A program made the position numbers and the translations under genes. Below the pieces are notes generated by a model. It saw only the letters and a list, made by a program, of their open reading frames with translations, was not told the DNA's origin and did not search any database. Shown one piece after another: positions 1,300 to 51,363 of a stretch of 64,000 nucleotides of DNA; within the stretch, counting starts at the first letter, position 1; each line of letters begins with the position of its first letter. Location of the stretch: assembly GCA_012103575.1 (NCBI GenBank), contig WLWN01000001.1:75792-139791 (forward strand), read 5' to 3'. The stretch is from Kiritimatiellia bacterium. Its GTDB lineage: Bacteria; Verrucomicrobiota; Kiritimatiellia; WLWN01.

Positions 1300-1327
1300 G
1301 GGGAATGAGCGGTCCGTTATTCTTCAT

Positions 1328-8360: not shown

Positions 8361-8690
8361 GGTAGAGTAACAATACAAGTGCAAAGGTCCGCAGCATAGT
8401 TCATTCTTTGGGTATCTGACCCCCCCAAAGGAGAACATAGAATGCCACGAACCTACGAACATTTAAACCGTTATGAACGAGAAGTGATAGCCCAGATGCT
8501 AAAAGAAAAATATAGCTTATCTCAAATTGGCCATCGCCTGGGCCGATCCCCCTCGACTATTTGGTGCGAATTTCGCCGTAATCAAGTCCGTGGCCGCTAT
8601 TACCCAAGACACGCAAATGGCCTGGCTCAAAGCCGATTACAGCTAGCTCGAAAGCCTCAAAAAGTGATGGGAGCTAGCAAAGAATAAGTG
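8361..8690 (+). mobile_element. IS30-family element, truncated copy (left end and first 81 codons only)
   Basis: Left end GGTAGAGTAACAATACAAGTGCAAAGG identical to copies at 17149, 32309, 40160; transposase ORF 8442-8687 diverges from the full copy after residue ~80. Confidence 0.7.
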
Positions 8691-8880
8691 GACCTGAATC
8701 CGTCAGCTATCGCTTCGGAAGGCGTTTTGGGGCTCAAAAGTTGAAAATTTTTTCCTTGAGATGCTCGCTTTTGGGCGGATTGGGACCGGCAAGTATCACC
8801 CTGATGAATTTTTTGAGCGTACAGGTCAGATTCACTCTGATTTGACCATTTTGGGGCGTAGGCCTCCTTGGGCAGTCGCC

Positions 8881-10702: not shown

Positions 10703-10865
10703 CCTGGATCCGTCAGTTAAACGCGGTTTTCTGCACGAACCATTTGGGCCAAAAGGAATTACAAAAAAGCCTCGACGCACCCAGCGGGTGCGCCTGCGTT
10801 TTTTTGCAACCTTTTGCCTCCAAAGCATTCGCACAGAAATCCCACGTTTAACTGACGGATCCAGG
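10703..10865 (+). mobile_element. MITE-1 copy 1 (163 bp, 21-bp perfect TIR CCTGGATCCGTCAGTTAAACG)
   Basis: Near-identical to copies at 15947-16109, 36061-36223 (inverted) and 51184-51338 (left TIR truncated). Confidence 0.75.
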
Positions 10866-12255: not shown

Positions 12256-12863
12256 GAGCGCTTCACGATTGAGGTGTCGTGATGTAGCACGAAGAAAACC
12301 AGCCGATTACCTCGTCGGGAGAAAAACCCGGCGAATACATTCTCCAAAAACAGCCGTCTCTGTCGCCCCCTCCCCCTCCATGGCCGCTGTTGTTCCGTCC
12401 AGGCGGACCGAAGAAATCAAGGTGGTGGTACACCAATGTCCATAAGGCGTTTTGGCAAAAAGCCTGTTCCCGCCCAACGCCCGGCCCCGCAGACGAGTCA
12501 TATTCGTTTTCGCCCCGGATTCATCAATAAAGACAAGGCGACTTGGATCAAGTTTGGCCACCTCTTGGATCCACTGCTTTCTCAAGAGATTTACATCCGC
12601 CCGGTAACGCCTTGAGCTGCTTTCCGCTGTAGAGGGCCTGACGATGCCCACGCGGTCGGGGAGCGGTCTGTCCGGTTTCGTTGAAACGAGAGAGCCCACG
12701 CTGAAACGTTCTAAGATCTACACGATAAGAAGATGCGATATCGGCCTGGGAACCTTTGCCCATTTTGTAGGCATCTATCGCACGCCGCCGGATTTCTGCT
12801 GTTGCTATACTCGTGTCATGGAGTATAGATCTTCTAGAGAGGCATTTCAATCGTTAGATGCTC
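12256..12863 (-). mobile_element. IS630-family element, internally deleted copy (TA-flanked)
   Basis: Same termini as other copies; TA at 12254-12255 and 12864-12865; DDE region deleted at junction GGGAGAAAAACCCGG. Confidence 0.75.
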
Positions 12864-12867
12864 TAAT

Positions 12868-14994: not shown

Positions 14995-15290
14995 CAGCGC
15001 CCCTCCAGGGCGCAGGATCTGTTCTCATGACCTTTCCTGGGGTTAAAACCCCAGGCTATATACCCTCACTGCGTTGCAGTGAAACAGGATTGAAGAGGTT
15101 GGAATTATGGATGAGATTGAAACTCTAGGTGGCATGTCCACACTGCATTGCAGTGAAGAAAGGTCGGATTTTGTATGGCGACAAATATGATGATTCCAAA
15201 GATGTCCCAACGGGACAAGGTGATACAGCCTGGGGTTTTGACCCCAGGAACGAGGGAACAACCCTTCCATTGCGCCCTGAAGGGGCGCTG
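14995..15290. repeat. MITE-2 copy 1 (hairpin-rich ~296-bp element with palindromic ends GCGCCCCTCCAGGGCGC / GCGCCCTGAAGGGGCGC)
   Basis: Second copy at 15615-15896; internal perfect palindromes CCTGGGGTTAAAACCCCAGG. Confidence 0.6.
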
Positions 15291-15348
15291 TTGAGGAGAG
15301 GAAAATGAGGAAAATAATGTTTAATTTAAATTTTACAGAAGGAGAAAA

Positions 15349-15614: not shown

Positions 15615-15896
15615 GGCACCCCTTCAGGGCGCAAGATCTTTTTTCATTACGTCTCCTGGGGTTGAAACCCCAGGCTATGCGTTGCAGTGAAAGAGGATGG
15701 AAGATGTTGGAATTATAGACGAGGTTGGACAGGTTGGCATGTTCACACATCATTGCAGTGAAGAGAGATCGGATTTTATAGGGTGACGAATATGATGACT
15801 CAAAAAGATGTCCCAATGGGACAAGGTGATACAGCCTGGGGTTTCAACCCCAGGAACCAGAAAACAATCATCCCATTGCGCCCTGAAGGGGCGCTG
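15615..15896. repeat. MITE-2 copy 2
   Basis: Near-identical architecture to 14995-15290 with scattered substitutions. Confidence 0.6.
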
Positions 15897-15946
15897 TCTA
15901 ATGAAAAAGAGTAAGAGCATGAATAAAGAACGTATAAATATAATAG

Positions 15947-16109
15947 CCTGGATCCGTCAGTTAAACGCGGTTTTCTGCACGAACCATTTGGGCCAAAAGG
16001 AATTACAAAAGAGCCTCGACGCACCCAGCAGGTGCGCCTGCGTTTTTTTGCAACCTTTTGCCTCCAAAGCATTCGCACAGAAATCCCACGTTTAACTGAC
16101 GGATCCAGG
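15947..16109 (+). mobile_element. MITE-1 copy 2
   Basis: Perfect TIRs; same internal sequence as copy 1. Confidence 0.75.
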
Positions 16110-17148: not shown

Positions 17149-18194
17149 GGTAGAGTAACAATACAAGTGCAAAGGTCCGCAGCATAGTTCATTCTTTGGG
17201 TATCTGACCCCCCCCCAAAGGAGAACATAGAATGCCACGAACCTACGAACATTTAAACCGTTATGAACGAGAAGTGATAGCCCAGATGCTAAAAGAAAAA
17301 TATAGCTTATCTCAAATTGGCCGTCGCCTGGGCCGATCCCCCTCGACTATTTGGCGCGAATTTCGCCGTAATCGAGTCCGTGGCCGCTATTACCCAAGAC
17401 CCGCAAATGGCCTGGCTCAAAGCCGATTACAGCTAGCTCGAAAGCCTCAAAAAGTGATGGGAGCTAGCAAAGAACAAGTGGAGACTCTCCTGGCGAATAT
17501 TGGTCTCCAGAACAGATTGAAGGTCGAGGAAAGCTAGAAGGTGACCCTCCCATCAGTCGAATGATGATCTACCGCTACTTGTACAGTCCAAGAGGGGCTG
17601 GCTACCGAAAATACCTGCGTGGCCCCGGAAAGAAAAAACGAGCGACTCGGAAAAGCCATTCACGTATACACAACCAAACGATGATTGACCAACGCCCCGA
17701 AGAGGGTGAAAGTCGCAAGGTGGCAGGCCATTGGGAAGGTGACACTATTCAGGGCCAAACGAGAAAAGAGGCCTGTGTAGTCACTCTAGTAGATCGAGCG
17801 ACTCGATATCTCATCGCCGATCTTTTACCTCGATGCAATGCCGAATCGGTCAACCGTTCCGTACCTCAGTTCGCTGATTCAGGGCTCCCCTTTAAAACGG
17901 TGACTGTAGATAATGGCATGGAGTTTGCCAGCCATGCTAAACTACAGAAAAAAATAGCAACCCCCATTTTCTTTGCTGAAGGGAGAAACCCTTGGCAAAG
18001 AGGGAGCAACGAAAATACGAATGGTTTGCTTCGCCAGTTTTTCCCGAAGAAAACCGACTTTGCTGCCCACAGCTCCGCTCAGTTGAGCTGGGCTGTGGAG
18101 TTACTGAATAATAGGCCGAGAAAATGCTTAGAATATAGAACGCCCAAAGAAATGATGGACAGCTTCGGTTTTGCACTTGTAAGTTGAGTCTGCA
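17149..18194 (+). mobile_element. IS30-family element (type 1), transposase frameshifted
   Basis: Transposase split into ORFs 17232-17537 and 17561-18187 by a 1-nt deletion (GAATATTGG versus GAAGTATTGG in the intact copy). Confidence 0.8.
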
Positions 18195-32308: not shown

Positions 32309-33357
32309 GGTAGAGTAACAATACAAATGCAAAGGTCCGCAGCATAGTTCATTCTTTGGGTATCTGACCCCCCCCAAAGGAGAACATAGAATGCCACGAA
32401 CCTACGAACATTTAAACCGTTATGAACGAGAAGTGATAGCCCAGATGCTAAAAGAAAAATATAGCTTATCTCAAATTGGCCGTCACCTGGGCCGATCCCC
32501 CTCGACTATTTGGCGCGAATTTCGCCGTAATCGAGTCCGTGGCCGCTATTACCCAAGACCCGCAAATGGCCTGGCTCAAAGCCGATTACAGCTAGCTCGA
32601 AAGCCTCAAAAAGTGATGGGAGCTAGCAAAGAACAAGTGGAGACTCTCCTGGCGAAGTATTGGTCTCCAGAACAGATTGAAGGTCGAAGAAAGCTAGAAG
32701 GTGACCCTCCCATCAGTCGAATGACGATCTACCGCTACTTGTACAGTCCAAGAGGGGCTGGCTACCGAAAATACCTGCGTGGCCCCGGAAAGAAAAAACG
32801 AGCGACTCGGAAAAGCCATTCACGTATACACAACCAAACGATGATTGACCAACGCCCCGAAGAGGGTGAAAGCCGCAAGGTGGCAGGCCATTGGGAAGGT
32901 GACACTATTCAGGGCCAAACGAGAAAAGAGGCCTGTGTAGTCACTCTAGTAGATCGAGCGACTCGATATCTCATCGCCGATCTTTTACCTCGATGCAATG
33001 CCGAATCGGTCAACCGTTCCGTACCTCAGTTCGCTGATTCAGGGCTCCCCTGTAAAACGGTGACTGTAGATAATGGCATGGAGTTTGCCAGCCATGCTAA
33101 ACTACAGAAAAAAATAGCAACCCCCATTTTCTTTGCTGAAGGGAGAAACCCTTGGCAAAGAGGGAGCAACGAAAACACGAATGGTTTGCTTCGCCAGTTT
33201 TTCCCGAAGAAAACCGACTTTGCTGCCCACAGCTCCGCTCAGTTGAGCTGGGCTGTAGAGTTACTGAATAATAGACCGAGAAAATGCTTAGAATATAGAA
33301 CGCCCAAAGAAATGATGGACAGCTTCGGTTTTGCACTTGTAAGTCTCCACCTCTGCA
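32309..33357 (+). mobile_element. IS30-family element (type 1), apparently intact
   Basis: Left end GGTAGAGTAACAATACAA..., right end ...TTTTGCACTTGTAAGT...TGCA; single 323-aa transposase ORF. Confidence 0.85.
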
Positions 33358-33362
33358 AATGA
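32391..33362 (+). CDS. IS30-family transposase (323 aa, intact)
   Basis: HTH N-terminus; DDE block GHWEGDTI...TVTVDNGMEF...NPWQRGSNENTNGLLRQF. Confidence 0.85.
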   Translation: MPRTYEHLNRYEREVIAQMLKEKYSLSQIGRHLGRSPSTIWREFRRNRVRGRYYPRPANGLAQSRLQLARKPQKVMGASKEQVETLLAKYWSPEQIEGRRKLEGDPPISRMTIYRYLYSPRGAGYRKYLRGPGKKKRATRKSHSRIHNQTMIDQRPEEGESRKVAGHWEGDTIQGQTRKEACVVTLVDRATRYLIADLLPRCNAESVNRSVPQFADSGLPCKTVTVDNGMEFASHAKLQKKIATPIFFAEGRNPWQRGSNENTNGLLRQFFPKKTDFAAHSSAQLSWAVELLNNRPRKCLEYRTPKEMMDSFGFALVSLHLCK

Positions 33363-36060: not shown

Positions 36061-36223
36061 CCTGGATCCGTTAGTTAGACGTGGGATTTCTGTGCGAATG
36101 CTTTGGAGGCAAAAGGTTGCAAAAAAACGCAGGCGCACCCGCTGGGTGTGTCGAGGCTTTTTTGTAATTCCTTTTGGCCCAAATGGTCCGTGCAGAAAAC
36201 CGCGTTTAACTGACGGATCCAGG
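36061..36223 (-). mobile_element. MITE-1 copy 3 (inverted orientation)
   Basis: Perfect TIRs; located 18 bp upstream of tadA start. Confidence 0.75.
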
Positions 36224-39089: not shown

Positions 39090-39164
39090 GCGGGGCGTAG
39101 CTCAGCCTGGTAGAGCGCTACGTTCGGGACGTAGAAGCCGTGGGTTCAAATCCCGCCGCCCCGA
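39090..39164 (+). tRNA. tRNA-Pro (anticodon CGG)
   Basis: Hand-folded cloverleaf: acceptor CGGGGCG/CGCCCCG, anticodon loop TTCGGGA, T-arm GTGGG-TTCAAAT-CCCGC. Confidence 0.8.
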
Positions 39165-39212
39165 CCCAACAAACCACGGAGTTGTAAACGGCATGGATGA
39201 AACGGAGAATTG

Positions 39213-39668
39213 TTAGCTCTTGTTTTTTTGGTACTCCTGGAGCAGTGACTGCCACTCTGTAATGAAGTCATTGTAGTGGTCTTTCGTAAAGCTGTTGATG
39301 AACTGCTCACCAGTGGTTGATAAGGCAACGCACCTGTAAGTAACGGTAACATCTGTGGTCTCTTGTCCTGAATCAGAGCAGGTAACTCTGATGACTCCGA
39401 TTTTCTCCTCTGGTTCTACTCTGTAGAGCTCAATTACGTAATTTCCGGGATCGTAGTGTTTCACGATCCAGAGAGCTTTGGTTGCGGTGTGGTCATGCGT
39501 CTTCGTCGTAAAGATGTAGTCTTCGCAGAGCTCTGTTGTGCCCATAAGATTCTGGTAATTCCACCCTAGCACCCATTCCTTCTCGCCCTCTGGGCTAAAC
39601 AAATGGAACGCTTGTTCAATGGGTATTTCTTCTATCTTGAATGCTTTGCTGCAGGCTATAGACGTCAT
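39213..39668 (-). CDS. hypothetical protein, possibly SRPBCC/START-like
   Basis: 151 aa ORF between two tRNA-Pro genes; weak resemblance only. Confidence 0.3.
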   Translation of the reverse strand: MTSIACSKAFKIEEIPIEQAFHLFSPEGEKEWVLGWNYQNLMGTTELCEDYIFTTKTHDHTATKALWIVKHYDPGNYVIELYRVEPEEKIGVIRVTCSDSGQETTDVTVTYRCVALSTTGEQFINSFTKDHYNDFITEWQSLLQEYQKNKS

Positions 39669-39919: not shown

Positions 39920-39996
<77 letters not shown>

Positions 39997-40159: not shown

Positions 40160-41206
40160 GGTAGAGTAACAATACAAGTGCAAAGGTCCGCAGCATAGTT
40201 CATTCTTTGGGTATCTGCCCCCCCCCAAAGGAGAACATAGAATGCCACGAACCTACGAACATTTAAACCGTTATGAACGAGAAGTGATAGCCCAGATGCT
40301 AAAAGAAAAATATAGCTTATCTCAAATTGGCCGTCGCCTGGGCCGATCCCCCTCGACTATTTGGCGCGAATTTCGCCGTAATCGAGTCTGTGGCCGCTAT
40401 TACCCAAGATCCGCAAATGGCCTGGCTCAAAGCCGATTACAGCTAGCTCGAAAGCCTCAAAAAGTGATGGGAGCTAGCAAAGAACAAGTGGAGACTCTCC
40501 TGGCGAAGTATTGGTCTCCAGAACAGATTGAAGGTCGAAGAAAGCTAGAAGGTGACCCCTCCCATCAGTCGAATGACGATCTACCGCTACTTGTACAGTC
40601 CAAGAGGGGCTGGCTACCGAAAATACCTGCGTGGCCCCGGAAAGAAAAAACGAGCGACTCGGAAAAGCCATTCACGTATACACAACCAAACGATGATTGA
40701 CCAACGCCCCGAAGAGGGTGAAAGTCGCAAGGTGGCAGGCCATTGGGAAGGTGACACTATTCAGGGCCAAACGAGAAAAGAGGCCTGTGTAGTCACTCTA
40801 GTAGATCGAGCGACTCAATATCTCATCGCCGATCTTTTACCTCGATGCAATGCCGAATCGGTCAACCGTTCCGTACCTCAGTTCGCTGATTCAGGGCTCC
40901 CCTGTAAAACGGTGACTGTAGATAATGGCATGGAGTTTGCCAGCCATGCTAAACTACAGAAAAAAATAGCAACCCCCATTTTCTTTGCTGAAGGGAGAAA
41001 CCCTTGGCAAAGAGGGAGCAACGAAAACACGAATGGTTTGCTTCGCCAGTTTTTCCCGAAGAAAACCGACTTTGCTGCCCACAGCTCCGCTCAGTTGAGC
41101 TGGGCTGTAGAGTTACTGAATAATAGACCGAGAAAATGCTTAGAATATAGAACGCCCAAAGAAATGATGGACAGCTTCGGTTTTGCACTTGTAAGTTGAG
41201 TCTGCA
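40160..41206 (+). mobile_element. IS30-family element (type 1), transposase frameshifted
   Basis: Transposase split into ORFs 40242-40700 and 40552-41199 by a 1-nt insertion in a C-run (GACCCCTCCC versus GACCCTCCC). Confidence 0.8.
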
Positions 41207-42641
41207 CATACGCAAAGTCGGTCCGGGTCCCATTCCCGTATTCACGACGTTCGGCACGGGTAGGTCCTATATAATCGTACGTGGCCACCAGACCATTCTG
41301 GTCTGTTATGCTTTGCTTACGTTCGAGCTCATCGTACGTACAGGTAACAACACGGCCTCCTGGATAAATACATGAAAGCATGTTGTCCACTCCGTCATAG
41401 GTGCAACTGTTTGTTTCTCCGTTAAGAACTTCTTGAATGATATAAGACAGGGAATCATAACTACGCGTGATCACCGAGTCATTGTCTTGGACATAAATGA
41501 TTCTGGATAACCCATCATATTGACAGCTTTCAAAGAGGGTGTTCGAAGAAATGCCGGGACCGGGCAACACATTTTTAGCCATAAGACGATCAAGCTGATC
41601 ATAGATATTTGACATGATGCTGCCATTGGCATCAATGCTCTGAACGAGGTTATCGTACACGTCATAGAAACTGCTATGGGTAGTGCCATCTGCATAGATG
41701 GTTAAGACCTCACGATCTAAGGGGTCATATCCGTAAGTGGTTGTATTCCCGTTATCATCGGTTATGGACGTGAGACGCGAAGAGTCATCCCAGACCCGGC
41801 TAATGGTAATGATATCAATAAAATTGCCACTTCCGGTACCATCGTCGGTTAAATCGTTCATGCTACTTGTAAGGCGATTGAGACCATCGTATTCATATCG
41901 AGATCTATTCCCCAAGGCATCAATCAAAAGCATATGATTATCGCGAGAGTCGTACGCGTATTCGATCGTATTAGAAGTATTATCGATGCTCTTAATACGA
42001 CGATTGAGGTTGTCATATTGATAGGTTGTCGTGAAAAGTTAGGGTTCCCCTGGTCAGATTTTTCTATCTCATCGACTTGTAATACGTTGTTATTGGCATC
42101 GTAGGCATAGGTAGAGATGTTGCTCTTAGCGTCTGTGCCAATAGATACACGATGGGCAGTATCGTATACGGTAAAGGTCTCGTTGCTATTATCGTTTTTA
42201 GTCCGTACAACTTGGGAGGCATCACTATAATAGAACTCAGTAATGGATTGGCCATCACCAATGGGCCATTGTGTAGTCGAATCAAAAAACTCGGTTTCTG
42301 TGCGAATACGACGATCCATAGTATCGTAAATATAAGCTGTTTCTGACAGACGGACATTATTTACCTAACCGATCAGATCGGTTAACTCACCATCGGTCTG
42401 CTCTGAGACACGATTATGATTGTCGTCATAGTGATAGGTCGCGACATTGCCCATGGAATCGGTTACCGCAACGGGTCGATTGTACTCATCATACACATAA
42501 GCTGTTATGTGTGGGGAACCTTCAAGCCCTTATAAGGTTCTAATCAGACTTCCGTTTTTATTGTAATCATATTGTACGGTTGACTGGTCAGGGCCACCTC
42601 CTGCTCGAACCACTTGAAAGAGTTTATCGCGTTCGTCATTC
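41207..42641 (-). pseudogene. RHS/YD-repeat protein, internal fragment with frameshifts, both ends cut by IS elements
   Basis: Repeated YD motifs (YEYDGLNRL, YGYDPLDRE, YDQLDRL, TYDELERK, YAYDANNNV); ORF pieces 41091-41933, 41924-42319 and further. Confidence 0.6.
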
Positions 42642-43867
42642 GGTGGATTGTAAAATTAAATGCCGCAAAAAATGGACCTGAGAGCTTCTGCTCATGCGGC
42701 GATCTCCAAATCGAAACACTCCTGTGCGGGTTTGTATTCTAGGATCTTGCGAGGATAGTTGTTAATCCATTTTTCAATCTCACCAATACGGTCGATGGTA
42801 TATTTTCCGATGTTGTCTCCTTTGGCGACGAAACGACAAACCATACGGTTGGCATTTTCGTTGGAGCCTCGTTCCCAGGAAGAATACGGGTGAGCATAAT
42901 AGAGTTTAACACGTCTCTTTTTGCTAAATCCGGAACGTTCCATCTGCTCCACGTCGAGAAGCTCGCTCCCGTTATCGGCTGTAATCGACTTGAACATCGA
43001 TCTGAATGGGCCAACTCCCGTCGATCTTTCGATCGCTTTGAGGGCCTGCAGAACCGATGCCTGTGTTTTATCCGAAAGTTTTCTCACCCTTAGCATTCGG
43101 GTCTTTCTTTCTACTAACGTCATTAAAACCGGTTTTGAAGTTCCTTTTCCGCCGACGATCAAATCCAATTCCCAGTGCCCAAATTCCTCGCGTTTTTCTA
43201 CGGTCTTAGGTCGTTTTTCGATACTGGTCCTTCGGGCATGTTGCTTTTTAACCCGCTTAATAGCACGTCTTTTTCGTTTTATCCGTTTTCGTTTTTCCCA
43301 TAGGGACTCGTTGCTCACCCCCGGGATGAGACCTTGGTCAATATAGGTATACAGCGTTTTTGTACTCACCGCTGCAGGTCTCTGCTCTTGTTTAAGCAAA
43401 GGAGCAACCACATCGGGTGAGCGTTTGTGAACAAGAATGTGCTCGCTGGTAAACACGGCCGCTTCATGATGCTTTCCAAGCTTAAGCTCAGGTCCCTTGG
43501 CCGTCGCATTTAGATCATGAAGTTCCTGGGCTCGATCACTGCTGTATGCTTTCTTCTTTCGCGGCTCTGTATCGAAATGCTCTACCTCCCCACGTTTGAT
43601 TTCGCGCTCTATGGTTCGACGATGCCTTCCCAGATAGCTAGTAGCTATCTCCAAAGGACGTCCTCGGTTTTTGAGCATTGTTTCAATCATGATCCGTTCT
43701 TTCTGTGTCAAATGCTTGCCTTTTCGGGGATGAATACTACTCTTGATTTGTTCCATGTCTTTTTCCTTTTTTTGTCTTCTGTCGAGTTTCTAAATCTAGA
43801 AGATTTCGGCATGGAACACTCCTGTTTTACAATATCTTCTTTTGGGCATTTAATATTACAATTCTCA
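42642..43867 (-). mobile_element. IS30-family element (type 2), copy A
   Basis: Ends TGAGAATTGTAATATTAAATGCC / GGCATTTAATTTTACAATCC; near-identical to copy at 49959-51183 in inverted orientation. Confidence 0.75.
42692..43756 (-). CDS. IS30-family transposase (354 aa)
   Basis: GHWELDLIVGG...ITADNGSEL...YYAHPYSSWERGSNENANRMV DDE block. Confidence 0.8.
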   Translation of the reverse strand: MEQIKSSIHPRKGKHLTQKERIMIETMLKNRGRPLEIATSYLGRHRRTIEREIKRGEVEHFDTEPRKKKAYSSDRAQELHDLNATAKGPELKLGKHHEAAVFTSEHILVHKRSPDVVAPLLKQEQRPAAVSTKTLYTYIDQGLIPGVSNESLWEKRKRIKRKRRAIKRVKKQHARRTSIEKRPKTVEKREEFGHWELDLIVGGKGTSKPVLMTLVERKTRMLRVRKLSDKTQASVLQALKAIERSTGVGPFRSMFKSITADNGSELLDVEQMERSGFSKKRRVKLYYAHPYSSWERGSNENANRMVCRFVAKGDNIGKYTIDRIGEIEKWINNYPRKILEYKPAQECFDLEIAA

Positions 43868-43922
43868 CATATAAAATCTATATGAAGCTTGACCTTAACG
43901 AACCGTAGGTATATCTTTAGAC

Positions 43923-44126
43923 ATGGATACTTCGATTATACAGAAGATGAATACACAAGAACAGTTGCAAACTATGGAGCAGCTTTGGGACAACTTGTGT
44001 AGACGTTGTGATTACCCTCTCACGCCTGAATGGCACGAAGACATTCTTAATGAGAGAAAGGCTATTCTCGACTCAGAAAATGCTTCATTGCTTTCCTTAG
44101 ATGAAATCAGGAAGCAACGAACCTAA
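43923..44126 (+). CDS. putative addiction-module antitoxin (TIGR02574-like)
   Basis: 67 aa; MEQLWDNL...LTPEWHEDILNERKAIL pattern; stop overlaps start of downstream toxin (ATGA). Confidence 0.5.
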   Translation: MDTSIIQKMNTQEQLQTMEQLWDNLCRRCDYPLTPEWHEDILNERKAILDSENASLLSLDEIRKQRT

Positions 44127-44428
44127 TGTTTCAAAAAGAAGTCTTGGTCCTCAAAGAAGTAAAAGAGGACATTGAATTAGGTAAAACTTTTTATGACTCA
44201 ATAGAACCTGGTGTTGGCCACTACTTTGCAAGCTGTATTTTAGCTGATCTCGAATCGTTACCGTTTTATTCAGGTGTACACAAGAAGATTTTTGGAGTCT
44301 ATCAAGCTTTATCAAAGAGATTCCCGTTTGGTATATATTACGAAATTAAAAATGAAACGATCATCGTTGTGGCTATACTTAACATGAGGCAAAATCCTGA
44401 GTCAATCCACAAAAGATTAACACGCTAA
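44126..44428 (+). CDS. RelE/ParE-family toxin
   Basis: 100 aa; C-terminal FPFGIYYEIKNETIIVVAILNMRQNP typical of ParE/RelE fold. Confidence 0.6.
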   Translation: MFQKEVLVLKEVKEDIELGKTFYDSIEPGVGHYFASCILADLESLPFYSGVHKKIFGVYQALSKRFPFGIYYEIKNETIIVVAILNMRQNPESIHKRLTR

Positions 44429-44721
44429 TAAAATCAGGATTCGTTCAACAATTAGATCCACCTAATACCACTCGCTGCGCCCACATTCTGGATCTATCGC
44501 ATAGGGTATTTATTTCGAGGTAACTGGTAACGAAACAAAGAACCACATGCATCCTTATAACTTATATTTAAAGGTATGGCCCCATTCCATTCACAACCTG
44601 AACCCGGACTACCTCATTTTTCTTTGCCTTGTTTACCACTTTTCGGTAGCGCAATCAAGATGCGCCCTTTTGGGGGGGTGTTTTGGTTTGATATGTTTCT
44701 GAATGCTGCTATGCTTTATTT

Positions 44722-44961
44722 ATGAGTCCGACAGTTTTTAGAGAAAAAGGGTATCGATTTTACTTTTTTTCGTTGGAAGAAAATCGGATGCATGTGCATG
44801 TCGCCTGTTCAGATGGCGATGCAAAATTTTGGCTCGAACCTAAAATTGACCTTGCCATGCAGCGTGGTCTTGCACCACACCGGCTAAATCAAATTCGGAA
44901 GATTATAGGAGACCATCAAAATGAGCTCACAGATGCTTGGCGAGAACACCTCGCTCGTTGA
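44722..44961 (+). CDS. DUF4160-family protein (toxin-antitoxin pair component)
   Basis: 79 aa; FYFFSLEENRMHVHV motif. Confidence 0.6.
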   Translation: MSPTVFREKGYRFYFFSLEENRMHVHVACSDGDAKFWLEPKIDLAMQRGLAPHRLNQIRKIIGDHQNELTDAWREHLAR

Positions 44962-45181
44962 GGTAACACACATGGACATCCGAGGGTTTTGGCTCTATGT
45001 CGACGGAACGGAACATTATCTGCCCTTTGACGACTTTCCCTGGTTTGCCAATGCAACCGTTAGGCAAATCTGCCATATTGAGCGATATCGTCCTCACCAT
45101 TTTCACTGGCCAGATATTGATGTTGATCTAACACTTGATATGATTGATCATCCCGATAAGTATCCTCTAAAATACACGTGA
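44921..45181 (+). CDS. DUF2442-family protein (partner of DUF4160)
   Basis: 86 aa; overlaps upstream gene by 41 nt; VEVTHMDIRGFWLYVDGTEHYLPFDDFPWF pattern. Confidence 0.55.
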   Translation: MSSQMLGENTSLVEVTHMDIRGFWLYVDGTEHYLPFDDFPWFANATVRQICHIERYRPHHFHWPDIDVDLTLDMIDHPDKYPLKYT

Positions 45182-45435
45182 AATACGAAGCATATGAGGC
45201 CATATATAATGAAGGGAAAGAAAGCAACGAACAATAGGTCCTCCTGCATACTCTATTCTGGGCATCCTCGGACACTAAACAAATAAGGGTAAGTCACCGA
45301 TACTTAAATCCGAGGACACCTTTTCCCCGAGAGAACGAAGCAAAGAACCGCGTACCCTTTTCCTAATCTTCCTTTTGTCTGGCCGTTATTCGCCAAGCTA
45401 AAAATTGGAAAATTGGAGACCTGACCCGAATGGCA

Positions 45436-46031
45436 CTAACTTAAGCATGATTTCCTTTTGTTTAACCAATGGCGATTTCTGTGAGCAGGCACAATCATTT
45501 CGTGCCTTGGTTTAGTCAGCAAATGATAGTTTTTTCGTCGTCTCTTTACAGCTCGAGGTTCACTTCTGCCAGGGCGTTGCCGCAAGGGTCTTTGGGTCAT
45601 GCTTTCATAGAGCATAAAAATCAAACCGAAACGTTCCTTCCGACTCATTCTCGCTTGATTTAGATTCGGCTCCCAACTGCGCAAGGCTTGAAGCGAAGTT
45701 TTGAAGCTAATTTGCCGAACGGGCAAACCAGCCTCTTCAGCCGCCTCATACATGATCCGGCGCATGCAGTTGTAGGCAATAAAATACATCACCATCTCTT
45801 TTCGGATCATTTCCGGGCTCTTGCATCGTAAGATATCCATACCCAGCGTTGTTTTTATATCACGGAAAAAGAGTTCAACATCCCAACGCCGAAAATACAC
45901 ATCGGCTAAATCTTTGGCAGGGTACTTTTCTGCATCTAATAATGTGGTGACCAGATAGATCACTTTAGATCGAAAGCCGGGCTGATTGATCGTTATTTTA
46001 ACTTGGCGTAGGAACAAACTAGAGCGCTTCA
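45436..46031 (-). pseudogene. IS4-family (DDE_Tnp_1) transposase, C-terminal fragment; 5' part removed by IS630 insertion
   Basis: YFRRWDVELFFRDIKTTLGMD (Y-R-E-K signature) ; ORF 45436-46056 runs into IS630 end. Confidence 0.6.
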
Positions 46032-46871
46032 CGATTGAGGTGTCGCGATGTAGCACGAAGAAAACCAGCCGATTACCTCGTCGGGAGAAACCTCTTCGGA
46101 CGCTTGTGTGATCGCTTCAGATAGTTCCTGCTGACTGCGGGCTGCAAGGCTGCCCAACCGATTCTTTATCTTGCCCCATATTTTTTCAATGGGGTTGGAA
46201 TCGGGGCTGTAGGGTGGAAGGAATCTTACATGGGCCCCACATGACTCAGTGAGTTCAATGACCTTGGGATTGTGATGGACGCGAAGATTGTCCATGATGA
46301 CGATGTCTTCAGGTGAAAGGGTCGGGAGAAAAACCCGGCGAATATATTCTCCAAAAACAACCGTCTCTGTCGCCCCCTCCCCCTCCATGGCCGCTGTTGT
46401 TCCGTCCAGGCGGACCGAAGAAATCAAGGTGGTGGTACACCAATGTCCATGAGACGTTTTGGCAAAAAGCCTGTTCCCGCCCAACGCCCGGCCCCGCAGA
46501 CGAGTCATATTCGTTTTCGCCCCGGATTCATCAATAAAGACAAGGCGACTTGGATCAAGTTTGGCCACCTCGTTGGATCCACTGCTTTCTCAAGAGATTT
46601 ACATCCGCCCGGTAACGCCTTGAGCTGCTTTCCGCTGTAGAGGGCCTGACAATGCCCACGCGGTCGGGGAGCGGTCTGTCCGGTTTCGTTGAAACGAGAG
46701 AGCCCACGCTGAAACGTTCTAAGATCTACACGATAAGAAGATGCGATATCGGCCTGGGAACCTTTGCCCATTTTGTAGGCATCTATCGCACGCCGCCGGA
46801 TTTCTGCTGTTGCTATACTCGTGTCATGGAGTATAGATCTTCTAAAGAGGCATTTCAATCGTTAAATGCTC
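46032..46871 (-). mobile_element. IS630-family element with ~150-bp internal deletion (TA-flanked)
   Basis: TA at 46030-46031 and 46872-46873; transposase ORFs 46505-46858 and 46029-46568. Confidence 0.8.
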
Positions 46872-47050
46872 TAGCAGAATCGTTGGGGTTCAGGCCATGA
46901 TTGTTTTCCCACTAATTCGGCAAGCCATCTAGATCGGTATCCACTCCAGGATCAAAACTGAACAAATTCTTTACTTGTCCGACGTTTGCAATGGCATAAT
47001 CATCGGCGATCCCTCCTGTCCAGGGATATTAGTTGGTATACCCACCACAA

Positions 47051-47416
47051 TCAACCAATCGTAAAAATTTGCGGCAATCGTTTTGATCTGCGCAAGATTA
47101 AGAGGGACATAATTTCCCTGACTTGAAAAGCCATATACCACATATTGGAGACCACATCCTGTTCGGGAATGGCTGTTGGTGGGAGATGGGTTTTTAGATA
47201 CTGATACCCCTGAAAGGCAATATGCTTGACCTGTCCATCAAGGACTGGAGAGTAGTCATCAGGGGATACATTGCTATTAATCACTCCCCGACTCGTCCAC
47301 CATTGGGGCGGAGCAGAGAAAACATGGGACGATGCGCCCATGCTAAACAGCAAGGTTAATATCCATAGGGCTATGCTTTTAATCCGAAACATTATCAATT
47401 TTTTCCTTATCTTCAC
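47051..47416 (-). CDS. hypothetical secreted protein
   Basis: 121 aa with N-terminal signal-peptide-like segment; no family recognised. Confidence 0.3.
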   Translation of the reverse strand: MKIRKKLIMFRIKSIALWILTLLFSMGASSHVFSAPPQWWTSRGVINSNVSPDDYSPVLDGQVKHIAFQGYQYLKTHLPPTAIPEQDVVSNMWYMAFQVREIMSLLILRRSKRLPQIFTIG

Positions 47417-47450
47417 TTTACGTTTTTGAATCCTCGATGTTCGATCCTGG

Positions 47451-49125
47451 CTATTCAGCTTTCGAACCCTCAGGGACTATTCGTGTAACTCCCCATCTGG
47501 AGATCGCCACGTGGTTGTATTGAATCGTGTTGAAAGCGGTCAGGATCAGGCTGTTTACAAGATTCGTGTCCGTTGTCGGCCAAGTCGATCGTGTTTCACT
47601 TCCGAGCGTAAGCGTTCCTCCAATCGTTAATCCGCCACTGATGGTATCACCTGCTTTATTGACATAGTTCGTCAACTGACTGGATGAAGCAAAGGTAGAG
47701 GCATCCAGACCGTCGAGCAGGTCCGCATTCCAATTCGTCCACAGAGTTGTGGAGGCCGTGCTCTTCTGGTTGAAATTAATCTGCTCATTTCCGTCATAGG
47801 TTATCGTTCCATCTATAAAATCGATTTCACTGCGATCATTCGACCCGGGATTAATACCTATATCACGAATATTCAGGGCACCGGTCATCGTGTCGCCCGC
47901 TTTGGTCACATAACGTCCATCGGCGGCGTTAGTGCTTATCGTTTCTGGCCAGGTGGTCAGCGCCGTCCCACCAAGCGTTAACGATTGGGCACTTACATCT
48001 CCGCCTACCGACAGGCTCCCACTGACCGCTCCTCCCATTTTATCTACATAATTGGTCAACTGACTATTTTGAGCAAAGCTCGAGGACTCCAACCCGTCAA
48101 TGAGATCCGCATTCCAATTCGTCCACAGAGTCGTGGAAGCCGTACTTTTCTAGCTAAAATTGATCTGTTCGGTGCCATCATAAGTTATTGTTCCATCTAT
48201 AAAGTCAATTTCACCACGATCGTTTGACCCGGGGTTAATACCGATGTCGCGAATATTCAGAGCGCCGGTCATGGTATCGCCCGCCTTGGTCACATAGCGA
48301 CCATCGGCGGCATTAGTGCTTATCGTTTCTGGCCAGGTGGTCAGCGCCGTCCCACCAAGCGTTAACGATTGGGCACTTACATCTTCGCCTACCGACAAGC
48401 TCTCACTCACGGCTCCTCCCGTTTTATCTACATAATTGGTCAACTGACTATTTTAGACAAACGTCGAGGCCTCTAAACCGTCAATGAGATCGGCATTCCA
48501 ATTTGTCCATAGAGTTGTGGAGGCCGTACTCTTCTGGTTGAAAATTGATCTGTTCGGTGCCGCCGTAAGTTATCGTCCCATCTATAAAGTCGATTTCACC
48601 ATCCTGATTCGACCCGGGGTTAGCCCCAATATGACTAACTTCCAGTGGGCCGGTCATCGTGTCTCCTGATTTGCTTACATAACAACCATCGGCGGCATTG
48701 GTGCTTATGGTTTCCGACCAATTGGTGATCGCTGTCCCGTCCAGCGTCGACGATTGAGCGACGCTTACATCTCCTGATACTGACAAGCCACCACTGATCG
48801 TATCACCTGTTTTATTCACATAACGACCATCAGCCTGATTCGTGCTTATCGTCTCTAGCCAGTTCGTAATCGTGCTCCCATTAAGAGTCAAGGAACCCGC
48901 CGTTACATCAGCGTCTACCGTCAGATCTTGTTTGAACAGCACATTACTGTTTACCGCTAGATCACCTTCCATGATAATGGCATTAGTTGCTATTTCTGCC
49001 TGAATGAGTAAAGAGAAGCTCAACAGAACCCCTAAAAAACAAAAACACCGCCTCAGAGAATAAAACCCAAAGAAAGAGGGGGGGAAGGAATCTTTATGGT
49101 TGGTCTCAAACAGTTGTCTTTTCAT
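47451..49125 (-). pseudogene. phage-tail-fibre-repeat protein with signal peptide, interrupted by a TAG, a TAA and a 1-nt insertion
   Basis: Three ORF pieces (48481-49125, 48150-48443, 47451-48092); recurring DGRYV(T/N)K(A/T)GDT(M/I)(T/S)G motif; tandem 384-bp units. Confidence 0.55.
47657..48808. repeat. tandem repeat, period 384 bp (128 codons), about 3 units, inside the tail-fibre-like gene
   Basis: TATCTACATAATTGGTCAACTGACTA recurs at 48041 and 48425; diverged homologue at 47657. Confidence 0.7.
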
Positions 49126-49182
49126 GGCTATATGCTCCCTTTTTTTACTATTCGTTAGATCATTGAATTATTGATTTAATAT

Positions 49183-49883
49183 TTATCTTATAAATACGGT
49201 TCCCCTAGGTCTGAAGATGATGGTTCCATTTGGTTTGAGTATCTGTTCATCATAACTACCCCCTTTTATTTCTAAGATATCTTGATCGAAAGCTACAGCC
49301 AAACCGCCTTCAACCGTTTCCTTGGGCCCATGACCATTTTCGACTATTGGTTTCACGCCATCATAGAGGTCATCGCCTGTAAGTGAATTGGCGTATAGAA
49401 TGATATGTGCGCTCTGTATATTCGTTGGATCCGTGCCGCGTTGGTACTCTTGGACATTGATGAACCCGTCACCATCCAGGTCTTGGGTTCCATCAATCTG
49501 GTCAAGCGGGTCTAAAAAGGATCTGTTTAATTCATAGACATCATCAATGCCATCCTGATCGGTATCCAGCGCATTGGTTATGGCCACGCGTTGGACATAA
49601 TAGAAGCCCATCGAATTCGTTGATGTCCCGAGCAGTTGCCCGCTAGCCTGCTGACCAAGGGCCATGTAGGTGGCCACTGTCATATCGGTTAGGGTCGGGC
49701 CATGAAGCAAAGTATAGTAATAGTTTGTACTGGACTGGTGGTGAATTTAAGAGTTGTTCAAATTATGGAACTGAACATCGGTGATTTGAAAATCCTGAGC
49801 ACTAACAAAATAACTAAGAGAAAGAGATAGAAGAAGTGCGGCGCCTGTCCTCCCCAAAAATTTACCTACTTTAAACCCCATTC
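49183..49883 (-). pseudogene. secreted protein with calcium-binding-like D-x-D-x-D-G repeats; signal peptide separated from body by frameshift/stop
   Basis: Signal peptide MRMGFKVGKFLGRTGAALLLSLSLSYFVSA ends in TAA (~49740); body ORF 49183-49710 with DTDQDGIDD and DLDGDGFIN motifs. Confidence 0.35.
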
Positions 49884-49958
49884 TCATCCTAAACACTATC
49901 TCCTTTTTATATTTAAAAAATGACAATGGAAAGATTTAAAGATTGTGTCAACTAAAAT

Positions 49959-51183
49959 GAGAATTGTAATATTAAATGCCCAAAAGAAGATATTGTAAAA
50001 CAGGAGTGTTCCATGCCGAAATCTTCTAGATTTAAAAACTCGACAGAAGACAAAAAAAGGAGAAAGACATGGAACAAATCAAGAGTAGTATTCATCCCCG
50101 AAAAGGCAAGCATTTGACACAGAAAGAACGGATCATGATTGAAACAATGCTCAAAAACCCAGGACGTCCTTTGGAGATAGCTACTAGCTATCTGGGAAGG
50201 CATCGTCGAACCATAGAGCGCGAAATCAAACGTGGGGAGGTAGAGCATTTCGATACAGAGCCGCGAAAGAAGAAAGCATACAGCAGTGATCGAGCCCAGG
50301 AACTTCATGATCTAAATGCGACGGCCAAGGGACCTGAGCTTAAGCTTGGAAAGCATCATGAAACGGCTGTGTTTATCAGCGAGCACATTCTTGCTCACAA
50401 GCGCTCACCCGATGTGGTTGCTCCTTTGCTTAAACAAGAGCAGAGACCTGCAGCGGTGAGTACAAAAACGCTGTATACCTATATTGACCAAGGTCTCATC
50501 CCGGGGGTGAGCAACGAGTCCCTATGGGAAAAACGAAAACGGATAAAACGAAAAAGACGTGCTATTAAGCGGGTTAAAAAGCAACATGCCCGAAGGACCA
50601 GTATCGAAAAACGACCTAAAACCGTAGAAAAACGCGAGGAATCTGGGCACTGGGAATTGGATTTGATCGTCGGCGGAAAAGGAACTTCAAAACCGGTTTT
50701 AATGACGTTAGTAGAAAGAAAGACCCGAATGCTAAGGGTGAGAAAACTTTCGGATAAAACACAGGCATCGGTTCTGCAGGCCCTCAAAGCGATCGAAAGA
50801 TCGATGGGAGTTGGCCCATTCAGATCGATGTTCAAGTCGATTACAGCCGATAACGGGAGCGAGTTTCTCGACGTGGAGCAGATGGAACGTTCCGGATTTA
50901 GCAAAAAGAGACGTGTTAAACTCTATTATGCTCACCCGTATTCTTCCTGGGAACGAGGCTCCAACGAAAATGCCAACCGTATGGTTTGTCGTTTCGTCGC
51001 CAAAGGAGACAACATCGGAAAATATACCATCGACCGTATTGGTGAGATTGAAAAGCGGATTAACAACTATCCTCGCAAGATCCTAGAATACAAACCCGCA
51101 CAGGAGTGTTTCGATTTGGAGATCGCCGCATGAACAGAAGCTCTCAGGTCCATTTTTTGCGGCATTTAATTTTACAATCCACC
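49959..51183 (+). mobile_element. IS30-family element (type 2), copy B
   Basis: Same termini as copy A; right end abuts a MITE-1 copy lacking its first ~8 TIR nucleotides. Confidence 0.75.
50069..51133 (+). CDS. IS30-family transposase (354 aa)
   Basis: Near-identical to 42692-43756 product (few substitutions). Confidence 0.8.
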   Translation: MEQIKSSIHPRKGKHLTQKERIMIETMLKNPGRPLEIATSYLGRHRRTIEREIKRGEVEHFDTEPRKKKAYSSDRAQELHDLNATAKGPELKLGKHHETAVFISEHILAHKRSPDVVAPLLKQEQRPAAVSTKTLYTYIDQGLIPGVSNESLWEKRKRIKRKRRAIKRVKKQHARRTSIEKRPKTVEKREESGHWELDLIVGGKGTSKPVLMTLVERKTRMLRVRKLSDKTQASVLQALKAIERSMGVGPFRSMFKSITADNGSEFLDVEQMERSGFSKKRRVKLYYAHPYSSWERGSNENANRMVCRFVAKGDNIGKYTIDRIGEIEKRINNYPRKILEYKPAQECFDLEIAA

Positions 51184-51338
51184 CGTCAGTTAAACGCGGT
51201 TTTCTGCATGAACCATTTGGGCCAAAAGGAATTACAAAAAAACCTCGACGCACCCAGTGGGTGCGCCTGCGTTTTTTTGCAACCTTTTGCCTCCAAAGCA
51301 TTCGCACAGAAATCCCACGTTTAACTGACGGATCCAGG
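51184..51338 (+). mobile_element. MITE-1 copy 4 (left TIR truncated at IS junction)
   Basis: Begins CGTCAGTTAAACG directly after IS30 type 2 end; right TIR intact; ends 25 bp upstream of serS ATG. Confidence 0.65.
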
Positions 51339-51363
51339 AAATAGAAAGATGGGGAGCCACCAT

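What the first reader, a model, noticed from the sequence alone, without database searches (positions are those of the whole stretch)
42642..51183. Six-kb island bracketed by two inverted copies of a second IS30-family element, carrying toxin-antitoxin modules and decayed mobile or secreted genes
Two near-identical 1.2-kb IS30-family elements (354-aa transposase; 42642-43867 minus, 49959-51183 plus) lie in inverted orientation with their right ends outward, bracketing 43868-49958. The enclosed segment contains two intact-looking TA pairs, an IS4 remnant truncated by an IS630 copy, a signal-peptide protein, a decayed phage-tail-fibre-repeat gene and a frameshifted calcium-binding secreted protein. 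The outer flanks are themselves mobile or decayed DNA (RHS fragment on one side, truncated MITE-1 then serS on the other). This is the architecture of a composite transposon or an IS-bounded accessory islet stabilised by addiction modules.
Basis: seen in the sequence. Interest (0 to 1): 0.55.

Follow-up and report, generated by a model that had tools for sequence, protein, structure and literature searches.

The report
Two insertion sequences flanking junk DNA
Two copies of a very abundant jumping gene sit 6 kb apart, facing opposite ways, in a sponge symbiont's genome and enclose decaying and selfish genes; it looks like a composite transposon, but nothing shows it ever moved as one piece, so it is ordinary.

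Summary
Two 1226-bp IS30-family elements (42642-43867 minus, 49958-51183 plus) are 98.8% identical, both have intact 354-aa transposase genes, and they bracket 6090 bp with their right ends outward. The listed contents are confirmed with small corrections.

The composite-transposon reading is not supported:
- No 2-10 bp target-site duplication fits either copy, the whole unit or an inversion product.
- The outer flanks cannot have been contiguous. One is the interior of a decayed RHS gene; the other is a MITE missing its first 8 nt.
- The interior is itself a patchwork. An IS4 fragment is cut off by an IS630 copy, and the rest of the IS4 is absent.
- The two copies are no closer to each other (8 aa differences) than to copies elsewhere in the genome (5-6).
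- The element has at least 68 transposase variants on a 3.1-Mb contig, very probably the sponge symbiont 'Ca. Patea custodiens'. About 8 such close pairs are expected by chance.
- All four junctions recur at 100% identity in independent sponge metagenome assemblies. No empty site and no second copy of the island was found.

Verdict: an IS-scrambled patch of accessory DNA between tRNA-Pro and serS. It is composite-like only in form. Low interest.

The parts
42642..43867 (-). Left copy of the IS30-family element ('IS30-B'), 1226 bp. Transposase ORF at 42692-43756 (354 aa, intact). IRR at 42642 (outer end), IRL at 43867 (inner end).
   Evidence: The end ...CAATCCACC| is confirmed by 13 independent IRR junctions. 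DD(33)E residues are D198, D261, E295.
49958..51183 (+). Right copy of IS30-B, 1226 bp. Transposase ORF at 50069-51133 (354 aa, intact). IRL at 49958 (inner end), IRR at 51183 (outer end).
   Evidence: It differs from the left copy at 15 nt and 8 aa. The terminal IRs match at 19 of 24 positions (sequence).
43923..44428 (+). TA module 1: PF09720 'Unstab_antitox' antitoxin (43923-44126, 67 aa) and a RelE/ParE-like toxin (44126-44428, 100 aa). Start and stop codons overlap.
   Evidence: PF09720 scores 39.6 bits against a cutoff of 23.3; ParE_toxin scores only 17.2 bits, below cutoff. GenBank names them NKB22916.1 and NKB22917.1.
44722..45181 (+). TA module 2, DhiTA type: DUF4160 (44722-44961, 79 aa) then DUF2442 (44921-45181, 86 aa), overlapping, toxin gene first.
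   Evidence: Weak match to NCBIfam toxin_DhiT. The DUF4160/DUF2442 pair was validated as a type II TA system in Dickeya (PMC8198452).
45421..46011 (-). 3' fragment of an IS4-family element: a 26-nt terminal IR at 45421-45446 and the C-terminal part of a DDE_Tnp_1 transposase. It is truncated at about 46011.
   Evidence: The full element is seen in L002 (352-aa plus 135-aa ORFs). The rest of the IS4 is absent from the window.
46012..46880 (-). IS630-family copy, an internally deleted variant with a split transposase (HTH ORF 46505-46858, DDE_3 ORF 46029-46568). Its boundaries are known to within about 5 nt.
   Evidence: Other copies lie at 1898-2434, 3270-4242 and 12253-12865.
47051..47416 (-). 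Small ORF (121 aa) with a signal-peptide-like N-terminus and no family match.
   Evidence: The signal peptide is judged by eye only.
47451..49125 (-). Pseudogene of a secreted protein with 128-aa (384-nt) tandem repeats that weakly resemble phage tail fibres. It has one frameshift near 48540 and in-frame stops at 48453-48455 (TAA) and 48150-48152 (TAG).
   Evidence: The lesions are identical in short-read contig L011.
49183..49890 (-). Pseudogene of a secreted protein with a calcium-binding (EF-hand or thrombospondin type 3) motif. A signal-peptide-like N-terminus is followed by an in-frame TAA at 49747-49749.
41207..42641 (-). Internal fragment of a decayed RHS/YD-repeat gene (stops at 42530-42532 and 42365-42367, plus a frameshift). 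It is cut by IS30-B at 42641 and by a different IS30-family element at about 41206.
40160..41206 (+). Copy of a different IS30-family element ('IS30-A') with a split transposase. Other copies lie at 17149-18194 and 32309-33344, with a partial copy at 8351-8692.
51184..51338 (.). Copy of a 163-nt MITE (terminal IR CCTGGATCCGTCAGTTAAACG) lacking its first 8 nt and abutting the IRR of the right IS30-B copy.
   Evidence: Complete copies lie at 10703-10865, 15947-16109 and 36061-36223.

Best explanation
The two elements are two of the many dispersed copies of one highly expanded IS30-family insertion sequence. The host is an IS-riddled, pseudogene-rich sponge-symbiont genome, very probably 'Candidatus Patea custodiens' from Mycale hentscheli. 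Both copies lie inside an 11-kb patch of mobile and decaying DNA (about 40160-51340) between tRNA-Pro(tgg) and serS.

Shown: none of the four IS30-B junctions is the partner of another. The internal IS630 copy also joins two unrelated segments: the TA modules plus an IS4 stump on one side, and secreted-protein pseudogenes on the other.

Inferred: the copies arrived independently. IS-mediated adjacent deletions and/or homologous recombination between dispersed copies then removed the original duplications and stitched unrelated fragments together.

The result has the form of a composite transposon: two intact transposase genes and four intact ends. It has no trace of having moved as a unit. What it can plausibly still do is invert the 6.1-kb interior by recombination between the inverted copies, or seed further deletions. 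Whether the TA modules have any stabilising role is speculation.
For: Copy number: the 90% protein cluster holds 68 transposase variants. The 15 members listed are all GenBank proteins of one Kiritimatiellae MAG and are recorded on the 3,096,896-bp contig, with accessions spread from NKB22833 to NKB25954. Thirteen distinct IRR junctions were recovered from sponge metagenome contigs. For 68 copies in 3.1 Mb, about 8.5 neighbouring pairs within 6.1 kb are expected, about 2 of them in this orientation.

Relationship of the two copies: they differ by 8 aa, while each is 5-6 aa from some other copy. By my count from the mismatch list, their 12 coding differences are about 9 non-synonymous and 3 synonymous, which looks roughly neutral.

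Junctions:
- No duplication of 2-10 bp fits any scenario, even when the ends are shifted by 0-6 nt.
- RHS coding sequence runs up to 42641 and has no continuation anywhere in the window.
- The MITE lacks 8 nt, and those 8 nt are not at any other junction.
- The IS4 is truncated by IS630 and the remainder is absent.

About 16% of the 64-kb window is IS or MITE sequence. All four junctions are identical in the WLWE/WLWF/WLWG/WLWI, JAAHTH and STOR20 assemblies. The island's TA proteins have one accession each, so there is a single locus in the source genome.

Source: the 3.09-Mb single contig of the Kiritimatiellaeota pateamine producer is described in PMC7157528.
Against: Absence of duplications is negative evidence. 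The duplication length for this particular IS clade could not be established. The one full-length relative examined (L018, 81% nt identity) also shows none, so the clade may simply not leave a recognisable duplication.

The two window copies share a 1-aa insertion (ATSY) that most listed copies lack. This hints at some shared ancestry or gene conversion.

The rest of the source genome could not be read, so the partner junctions predicted elsewhere were not found.

Short-read contigs confirm each junction but not the linkage across the 1.2-kb IS.
Confidence: 0.72

Rival explanations
1. A true composite transposon. The two IS30-B copies and the 6.1-kb cargo transposed together into this site using the two outward-facing IRR ends. 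Later deletions next to the outer ends erased the duplication and the original flanks.
For: The form is right: the same IS on both sides, both transposase ORFs intact, all four terminal repeats intact. IS30-family elements do form natural composite transposons, for example Tn6330 with ISApl1 (PMC5821093). The two copies share a 1-aa insertion that is rare among listed copies. TA cargo is typical of mobile DNA.
Against: There is no outer duplication: TC versus CG at 2 bp. The best near-match is 6 of 8 (CGTCATTC versus CGTCAGTT). The right-hand 8-mer is fixed MITE sequence, and the left one is not preceded by the missing MITE bases. The flanks are non-contiguous. There is a single locus in the source genome and no empty site in the other assemblies. 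The copies are not sister copies. The cargo is itself an IS-made mosaic of pseudogenes. Tn6330 has directly repeated copies and uses one IRL and one IRR; activity of an IRR/IRR pair is unproven.
Confidence: 0.08
2. The whole 40-51 kb patch is the decayed remnant of one genomic island or prophage that integrated next to tRNA-Pro. The insertion sequences are later invaders, and the interior genes were once neighbours.
For: tRNA-Pro(tgg) lies at 39920-39996, immediately left of the patch, and tRNA-Pro(cgg) at 39091-39166. The cargo is island-like: RHS, two TA modules, a tail-fibre-like repeat protein. Housekeeping genes lie on both sides: lipA and nfuA on the left; serS, tilS, ftsH and folP on the right.
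Against: There is no integrase and no att-like repeat of either tRNA. The tail-fibre similarity is weak (E about 1e-7, no Pfam hit). The orphan junctions show that at least some neighbours were brought together secondarily. This reading is compatible with the best explanation rather than opposed to it.
Confidence: 0.15
3. Assembly artefact. The hybrid assembly mis-joined contigs across the repeated IS, so the bracketed arrangement or the orientation of the interior is not what exists in the cells.
For: The element has dozens of near-identical copies. Short-read contigs all break inside it, so they confirm junctions but not linkage. Contig L002 shows that repeat-crossing joins in these data can connect this locus to genes that lie about 2,660 locus tags away in the source genome.
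Against: The source contig came from a hybrid metagenome assembly (PMC7157528). On the assumption that it included long reads, those would span a 1.2-kb repeat. Copy-specific SNPs next to each junction in independent contigs agree with the window.
Confidence: 0.04

Closest known systems
IS30-family insertion sequences (IS30, ISApl1, IS4351)
   Same: Single transposase with an N-terminal HTH and an rve catalytic domain. It scores 228 bits against the NCBIfam IS30 equivalog model. The DD(33)E spacing is present. The element is 1226 bp with imperfect terminal repeats of about 24 bp.
   Different: The 2-3 bp duplication typical of the family (2 bp for ISApl1, PMC5821093) is not visible at either copy or at an 81%-identical relative. 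As far as I know the element is not a named ISfinder entry; I could not check this.
Tn6330 (ISApl1-mcr-1-pap2-ISApl1) and other IS30-family composite transposons
   Same: Two copies of one IS30-family element bracket a few kb of unrelated cargo.
   Different: Tn6330 has directly repeated copies, a 2-bp duplication at each new site, conserved inner dinucleotide 'fingerprints', and occurs at many sites. Here the copies are inverted with IRR/IRR outward, there is no duplication, there is only one site, and the cargo has no selectable function.
IS expansion and IS-mediated genome scrambling in recently host-restricted bacteria (e.g. Shigella, Bordetella pertussis, Sodalis; from general knowledge)
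   Same: There are many near-identical IS copies, numerous pseudogenes, junctions lacking duplications, and truncated elements nested in one another. About 16% of this window is repeat sequence.
   Different: The pattern has not been quantified genome-wide here. The two M. hentscheli papers consulted say almost nothing about transposases or IS elements in this symbiont: no mention in PMC7157528 and one figure-legend mention in PMC7196800.
DhiTA (DUF4160/DUF2442) and PF09720 + RelE/ParE type II toxin-antitoxin modules
   Same: Gene sizes, order and overlap match, and the Pfam domains are present. DhiTA was validated in Dickeya dadantii (PMC8198452).
   Different: Scores fall far below the DhiT equivalog cutoff (17.9 versus 100 bits) and below the ParE_toxin gathering score (17.2 versus 23 bits). 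No functional data exist.

Membership tests
IS30 family insertion sequence | Transposase matches the curated IS30 family model | tested here: met
   NCBIfam NF033563 transpos_IS30: 228.1 bits against a cutoff of 80, E 1.5e-67. Pfam HTH_38 above cutoff (34.4 vs 27); rve just below its gathering score (28.8 vs 32.6).
IS30 family insertion sequence | DDE catalytic triad with 33 residues between the second D and the E | tested here: met
   D198, D261 and E295, with 33 residues between D261 and E295. Residues were assigned by motif (WELD, TADNG, SWERG), not by structure.
IS30 family insertion sequence | Length 1.0-1.7 kb, one ORF, terminal inverted repeats of 20-30 bp | tested here: met
   1226 bp with one 354-aa ORF. 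IRL TGAGAATTGTAATATTAAATGCCC and IRR GGTGGATTGTAAAATTAAATGCCG match at 19 of 24 positions. The IRR end is fixed by 13 junctions.
IS30 family insertion sequence | 2-3 bp target-site duplication | tested here: inconclusive
   None at the left copy, the right copy or relative L018, under any end shift of 0-6 nt and any length of 2-10 bp. Rearrangement after insertion can erase duplications, so this does not exclude membership.
Composite transposon | Two copies of the same IS bracket a segment, with intact outer ends and at least one intact transposase gene | tested here: met
Composite transposon | Target-site duplication flanking the whole unit | tested here: not met
   Outer flanks are ...GTCATTC| and |CGTCAGT..., with no match at 2-7 bp and 6 of 8 at 8 bp.
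Composite transposon | Outer flanks form a continuous sequence once the unit is removed (empty site) | tested here: not met
   The left flank is mid-RHS coding sequence. The right flank is a MITE missing its first 8 nt. No empty site appears in the other assemblies, which all carry the same four junctions.
Composite transposon | The same unit is present at more than one site or replicon | tested here: not met
   The cargo proteins have one GenBank accession each in the source genome (NKB22916-22919, NKB22924). Every other assembly shows the same locus.
Composite transposon | Demonstrated mobility of the unit | not testable with these tools
   This needs long reads or a transposition assay.
Type II TA, PF09720 antitoxin + RelE/ParE toxin | Two small adjacent co-oriented genes; antitoxin and toxin match family models | tested here: inconclusive
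   Antitoxin: PF09720 at 39.6 bits against a cutoff of 23.3. Toxin: PF05016 at 17.2 bits against a cutoff of 23. No PDB hit. PGAP names the toxin a RelE/ParE family toxin.
DhiTA type II TA | DUF4160 toxin gene followed by an overlapping DUF2442 antitoxin gene | tested here: met
   PF13711 at 60.6 bits and PF10387 at 46.4 bits, with a 41-nt overlap. The architecture matches PMC8198452.
DhiTA type II TA | Equivalog-level match to DhiT; toxicity and neutralisation | tested here: not met
   NF048015 at 17.9 bits against a cutoff of 100. It belongs to the same domain superfamily but is not the same protein. Function is not testable here.

The most novel reading that the evidence does not exclude
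The unit is a still-active IS30-family composite transposon that uses two right ends (IRR/IRR) and carries two toxin-antitoxin modules as cargo. The missing duplications would reflect an unusual insertion chemistry of this IS clade rather than later rearrangement. That would make it an example of selfish cargo hitch-hiking during IS expansion in a sponge symbiont.
Probability: 0.04. Interest if true: 0.35.

Novelty: new member of a known kind. Interest (0 to 1): 0.12.

Why it matters
It matters little on its own. It is one local example of how a burst of insertion sequences is scrambling and eroding the genome of a sponge symbiont, probably the pateamine producer. The context may be of some use. 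The two source papers I consulted barely mention transposases or IS elements for this symbiont. The IS load (at least 68 variants of one IS30-family element, plus IS30-A, IS630, IS4 and a 163-nt MITE) may explain why its biosynthetic clusters were hard to assemble. It is also the pattern seen in bacteria that have recently become host-restricted. If the unit were shown to move, it would be an unusual inverted IRR/IRR composite for this family.

Tried and rejected
- Exact-protein look-ups for the window's transposases and for SerS with the longest-ORF start found nothing. The source genome is not in that index. SerS worked once the start was moved to M6.
- The single genome-contig scan did not contain the source genome. 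It returned only one mis-binned 6.1-kb contig (L001) bounded by the same IS ends.
- The metagenome scan returned IRR junctions only. No further IRL junctions were obtained. Junctions therefore could not be paired, and the clade's duplication length could not be determined.
- The closest full-length relative (L018) gave no duplication either.
- I first read contig L002 (intact IS4 next to the TA modules) as a strain variant. One search showed that its far side corresponds to genes about 2,660 locus tags away in the source genome. It may therefore be a short-read chimera through the multi-copy IS4, and I do not rely on it.
- The look-up of the intact IS4 transposase failed.
- No att-like repeat of the adjacent tRNA-Pro genes was found.
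- There were no Rfam hits other than the two tRNAs.
- There were no PADLOC hits for the small ORFs and no PDB hit for the toxin.
- The 3-nt match between the inner flank of the left copy (...ATG|IRL) and the IRR flank in L020 (IRR|ATG...) is expected by chance among 13 flanks, so I did not pursue it.
- In-frame stops in the pseudogenes are a mix of TAA and TAG, so recoding was rejected.

Full report
**1. The observation**

The window contains one long inverted repeat. Its arms are 42642-43867 and 49958-51183, 1226 nt each, with 15 mismatches and no gaps (98.8%), and they enclose 6090 nt. No other copy is in the window.

Each arm carries an intact 354-aa ORF (42692-43756 minus, 50069-51133 plus). 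The ORF has an HTH_38 domain and an rve domain and scores 228 bits against the NCBIfam IS30 equivalog model, whose cutoff is 80. The catalytic residues fall at D198, D261 and E295, which gives the DD(33)E spacing of the IS30 family (the spacing rule is from general knowledge).

The terminal repeats are IRL TGAGAATTGTAATATTAAATGCCC and IRR GGTGGATTGTAAAATTAAATGCCG, matching at 19 of 24 positions.

**2. Contents and flanks**

The inventory is essentially right:
- 43923-44126 is a PF09720 antitoxin and 44126-44428 a small partner. Pfam links the partner only weakly to ParE (17.2 bits, below cutoff), but GenBank calls it a RelE/ParE family toxin.
- 44722-44961 (DUF4160) and 44921-45181 (DUF2442) form the pair validated as the DhiTA type II toxin-antitoxin system in Dickeya dadantii, with the same toxin-first order (PMC8198452).
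- 45421-46011 is the 3' end of an IS4-family element. It is cut off by an internally deleted IS630-family copy at about 46012-46880, which has relatives at three other places in the window.
- On the minus strand follow three genes: a 121-aa ORF with a signal-peptide-like start; a gene with 128-aa tandem repeats broken by one frameshift and two in-frame stops; and a calcium-binding-motif gene.
- The repeat gene has weak PHROGs tail-fibre hits (E about 1e-7) and no Pfam hit.

To the left, decayed RHS/YD-repeat coding sequence runs on the minus strand right up to 42641. It is cut at its other end (about 41206) by a different IS30-family element. To the right, the IS abuts a copy of a 163-nt MITE that lacks its first 8 nt, and serS follows.

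Housekeeping genes resume on both sides: lipA, a translocase-like gene, nfuA and two tRNA-Pro genes on the left; serS, tilS, ftsH and folP on the right. The mobile patch therefore spans about 40160-51340.

**3. Where it comes from**

The two transposases are GenBank proteins NKB22915.1 and NKB22926.1 of a 'Kiritimatiellae bacterium' MAG with a 3,096,896-bp contig.

Contigs from Mycale hentscheli sponge metagenomes are 100% identical to the window. Storey et al. describe a 3.09-Mb single contig for the Kiritimatiellaeota pateamine producer 'Ca. Patea custodiens', obtained by hybrid assembly (PMC7157528; see also PMC7196800). I infer that this is the source; it is not proven.

**4. Is the pairing more than chance?**

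The repeat itself clearly is. The proximity of the two copies is not.
- The 90% protein cluster holds 68 distinct transposase variants. The members listed all carry accessions of this one MAG, scattered from NKB22833 to NKB25954.
- Thirteen different IRR junctions were recovered from the sponge metagenomes. All end in ...CAATCCACC|, and the flanks show no obvious consensus.
- With 68 copies in 3.1 Mb, about 8.5 neighbouring pairs within 6.1 kb are expected, about 2 of them in this orientation.
- Contig L001 is another 6-kb segment bounded by ends of the same IS.
- About 16% of the window is IS or MITE sequence.

**5. Tests of the composite-transposon reading**

(a) *Duplications.* IS30-family elements typically leave 2 bp (PMC5821093). 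No direct repeat of 2-10 bp fits the left copy, the right copy, the whole unit or an inversion product, even when the ends are shifted by up to 6 nt. The best near-match is 6 of 8 (CGTCATTC versus CGTCAGTT at the outer flanks). It is not significant after multiple testing. It is also contradicted by the fact that the right-hand 8-mer is fixed MITE sequence.

(b) *Flank continuity.* Removing the unit would join mid-RHS coding sequence to a MITE lacking 8 nt. The RHS gene has no continuation anywhere in the window, and the missing MITE bases are at none of the other junctions. Both outer junctions are therefore orphans.

(c) *The cargo is a mosaic.* The IS630 copy has an IS4 stump on one side and unrelated DNA on the other, and the rest of the IS4 is absent.

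(d) *Relationship of the copies.* They differ by 8 aa, while each is 5-6 aa from some copy elsewhere. By my count from the mismatch list, about 9 of their 12 coding differences are non-synonymous, which looks roughly neutral. They do share a 1-aa insertion that is rare among the listed copies. That is the only hint of a special relationship.

(e) *Other sites.* The cargo proteins have one accession each in the source genome. Every independent assembly shows the same four junctions at 100% identity. No empty site and no second site was seen.

**6. A caution on contig L002**

One contig (L002, WLWE01008177.1) carries the TA modules followed by a complete IS4 and then other genes. I first took this as a structural variant. 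One search showed that those other genes are GKR87_14005/14015 in the source genome, about 2,660 locus tags from this locus. The IS4 has about 15 ORF variants in the genome. L002 may therefore be a short-read chimera through the repeat, and I do not rest any conclusion on it.

**7. Best explanation**

The two copies are independent members of an IS burst that landed in, or were recombined into, a patch of already dispensable DNA next to tRNA-Pro.

Shown: none of the four junctions is the partner of another in the window, the cargo is a mosaic, and the junctions are identical in every sponge metagenome assembly examined.

Inferred: IS-mediated deletions and recombination between dispersed copies produced the orphan junctions.

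The structure is composite-like in form only. Its likeliest remaining activity is inversion of the interior by recombination between the inverted copies. A stabilising role for the TA modules is untested.

Rival readings and rough probabilities: a real composite transposon whose flanks were later eroded (about 8%); a decayed tRNA-linked island or prophage, which is compatible with the main reading (about 15%); an assembly mis-join (about 4%).

**8. Comparison with known systems, and novelty**

The element passes the membership tests for the IS30 family except for the duplication, which is inconclusive. The closest named composite is Tn6330 (ISApl1-mcr-1-ISApl1). Tn6330 differs in having direct copies, 2-bp duplications and many insertion sites.

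Every gene for which I retrieved the GenBank record (the two transposases, the four TA proteins, the IS4 fragment and the 214-aa ORF) already carries a conventional annotation. I rate this as a new member of a known kind. A specialist would not be surprised, so interest is low.

Noticed in passing
window 10703-10865, 15947-16109, 36061-36223, 51184-51338: A 163-nt MITE with 21-nt terminal inverted repeats (CCTGGATCCGTCAGTTAAACG) is present four times in 64 kb. The copy beside serS lacks its first 8 nt. Its IR matches the IS30-B IRR at 11 of 19 positions (a hand count, possibly chance). No parent element was identified.
   Followed up: partly
window 8351-8692, 17149-18194, 32309-33344, 40160-41206: A second, unrelated IS30-family element ('IS30-A', 323-aa transposase at 32391-33362) is present in three full copies and one partial copy. 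The copy at 40160-41206 has a split ORF and truncates the RHS fragment.
   Followed up: partly
window 1898-2434, 3270-4242, 12253-12865, 46012-46880: There are four IS630-family copies with different internal deletions. Two of them form a nested inverted arrangement at 1898-4242.
   Followed up: no
window 44671: The window has a run of 7 G in a terminator-like hairpin downstream of the RelE/ParE gene. All six independent short-read contigs have 8 G. This is probably a long-read homopolymer error in the source assembly. It is intergenic.
   Followed up: yes
L002 (WLWE01008177.1) 1-4696: This contig joins the island's TA modules through a complete IS4 (352-aa plus 135-aa split transposase, 26-nt IRs) to genes that are GKR87_14005/14015 in the source genome, about 2,660 locus tags away. 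It is either a real strain rearrangement or a repeat-induced chimera.
   Followed up: partly
L001 (JAALKB010000218.1, 'Gammaproteobacteria bacterium MH1_Bin6'): This 6108-bp contig is bounded at both ends by about 52 nt of the IS30-B IRR, 98-100% identical to the window copies. It encodes DUF11 and FG-GAP-like repeat proteins. It is probably a mis-binned piece of the Kiritimatiellae symbiont and another IS-bracketed segment.
   Followed up: partly
window 15198-15291 and 15804-15897; L025 flank: A 94-nt repeat containing a GC-rich hairpin (CCTGGGGTTTTGACCCCAGG) occurs twice, 606 nt apart. A similar sequence lies directly beside an IS30-B end in metagenome contig L025. It may be another small repeat family.
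   Followed up: no
window 39091-39166 (+) and 39920-39996 (-): Two tRNA-Pro genes (anticodons CGG and TGG) face each other around a 151-aa ORF with no family match (39213-39668), immediately left of the mobile patch. No att-like repeat of either tRNA was found in the window.
   Followed up: yes
source genome (protein clusters): One 3.1-Mb symbiont contig carries at least 68 protein variants of IS30-B and about 15 broken variants of the IS4 element. Many IS30-B ORFs are 313-aa N-terminally shortened forms. The two Mycale hentscheli papers I consulted barely mention transposases or IS elements for this symbiont (none in PMC7157528, one figure-legend mention in PMC7196800).
   Followed up: partly
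window 43763 versus L005/L006: At one of the 15 sites that distinguish the two IS copies, contigs from two other samples (WLWG, WLWF) carry the right-copy allele next to the left copy's inner junction. This suggests polymorphism or gene conversion between IS copies.
   Followed up: no
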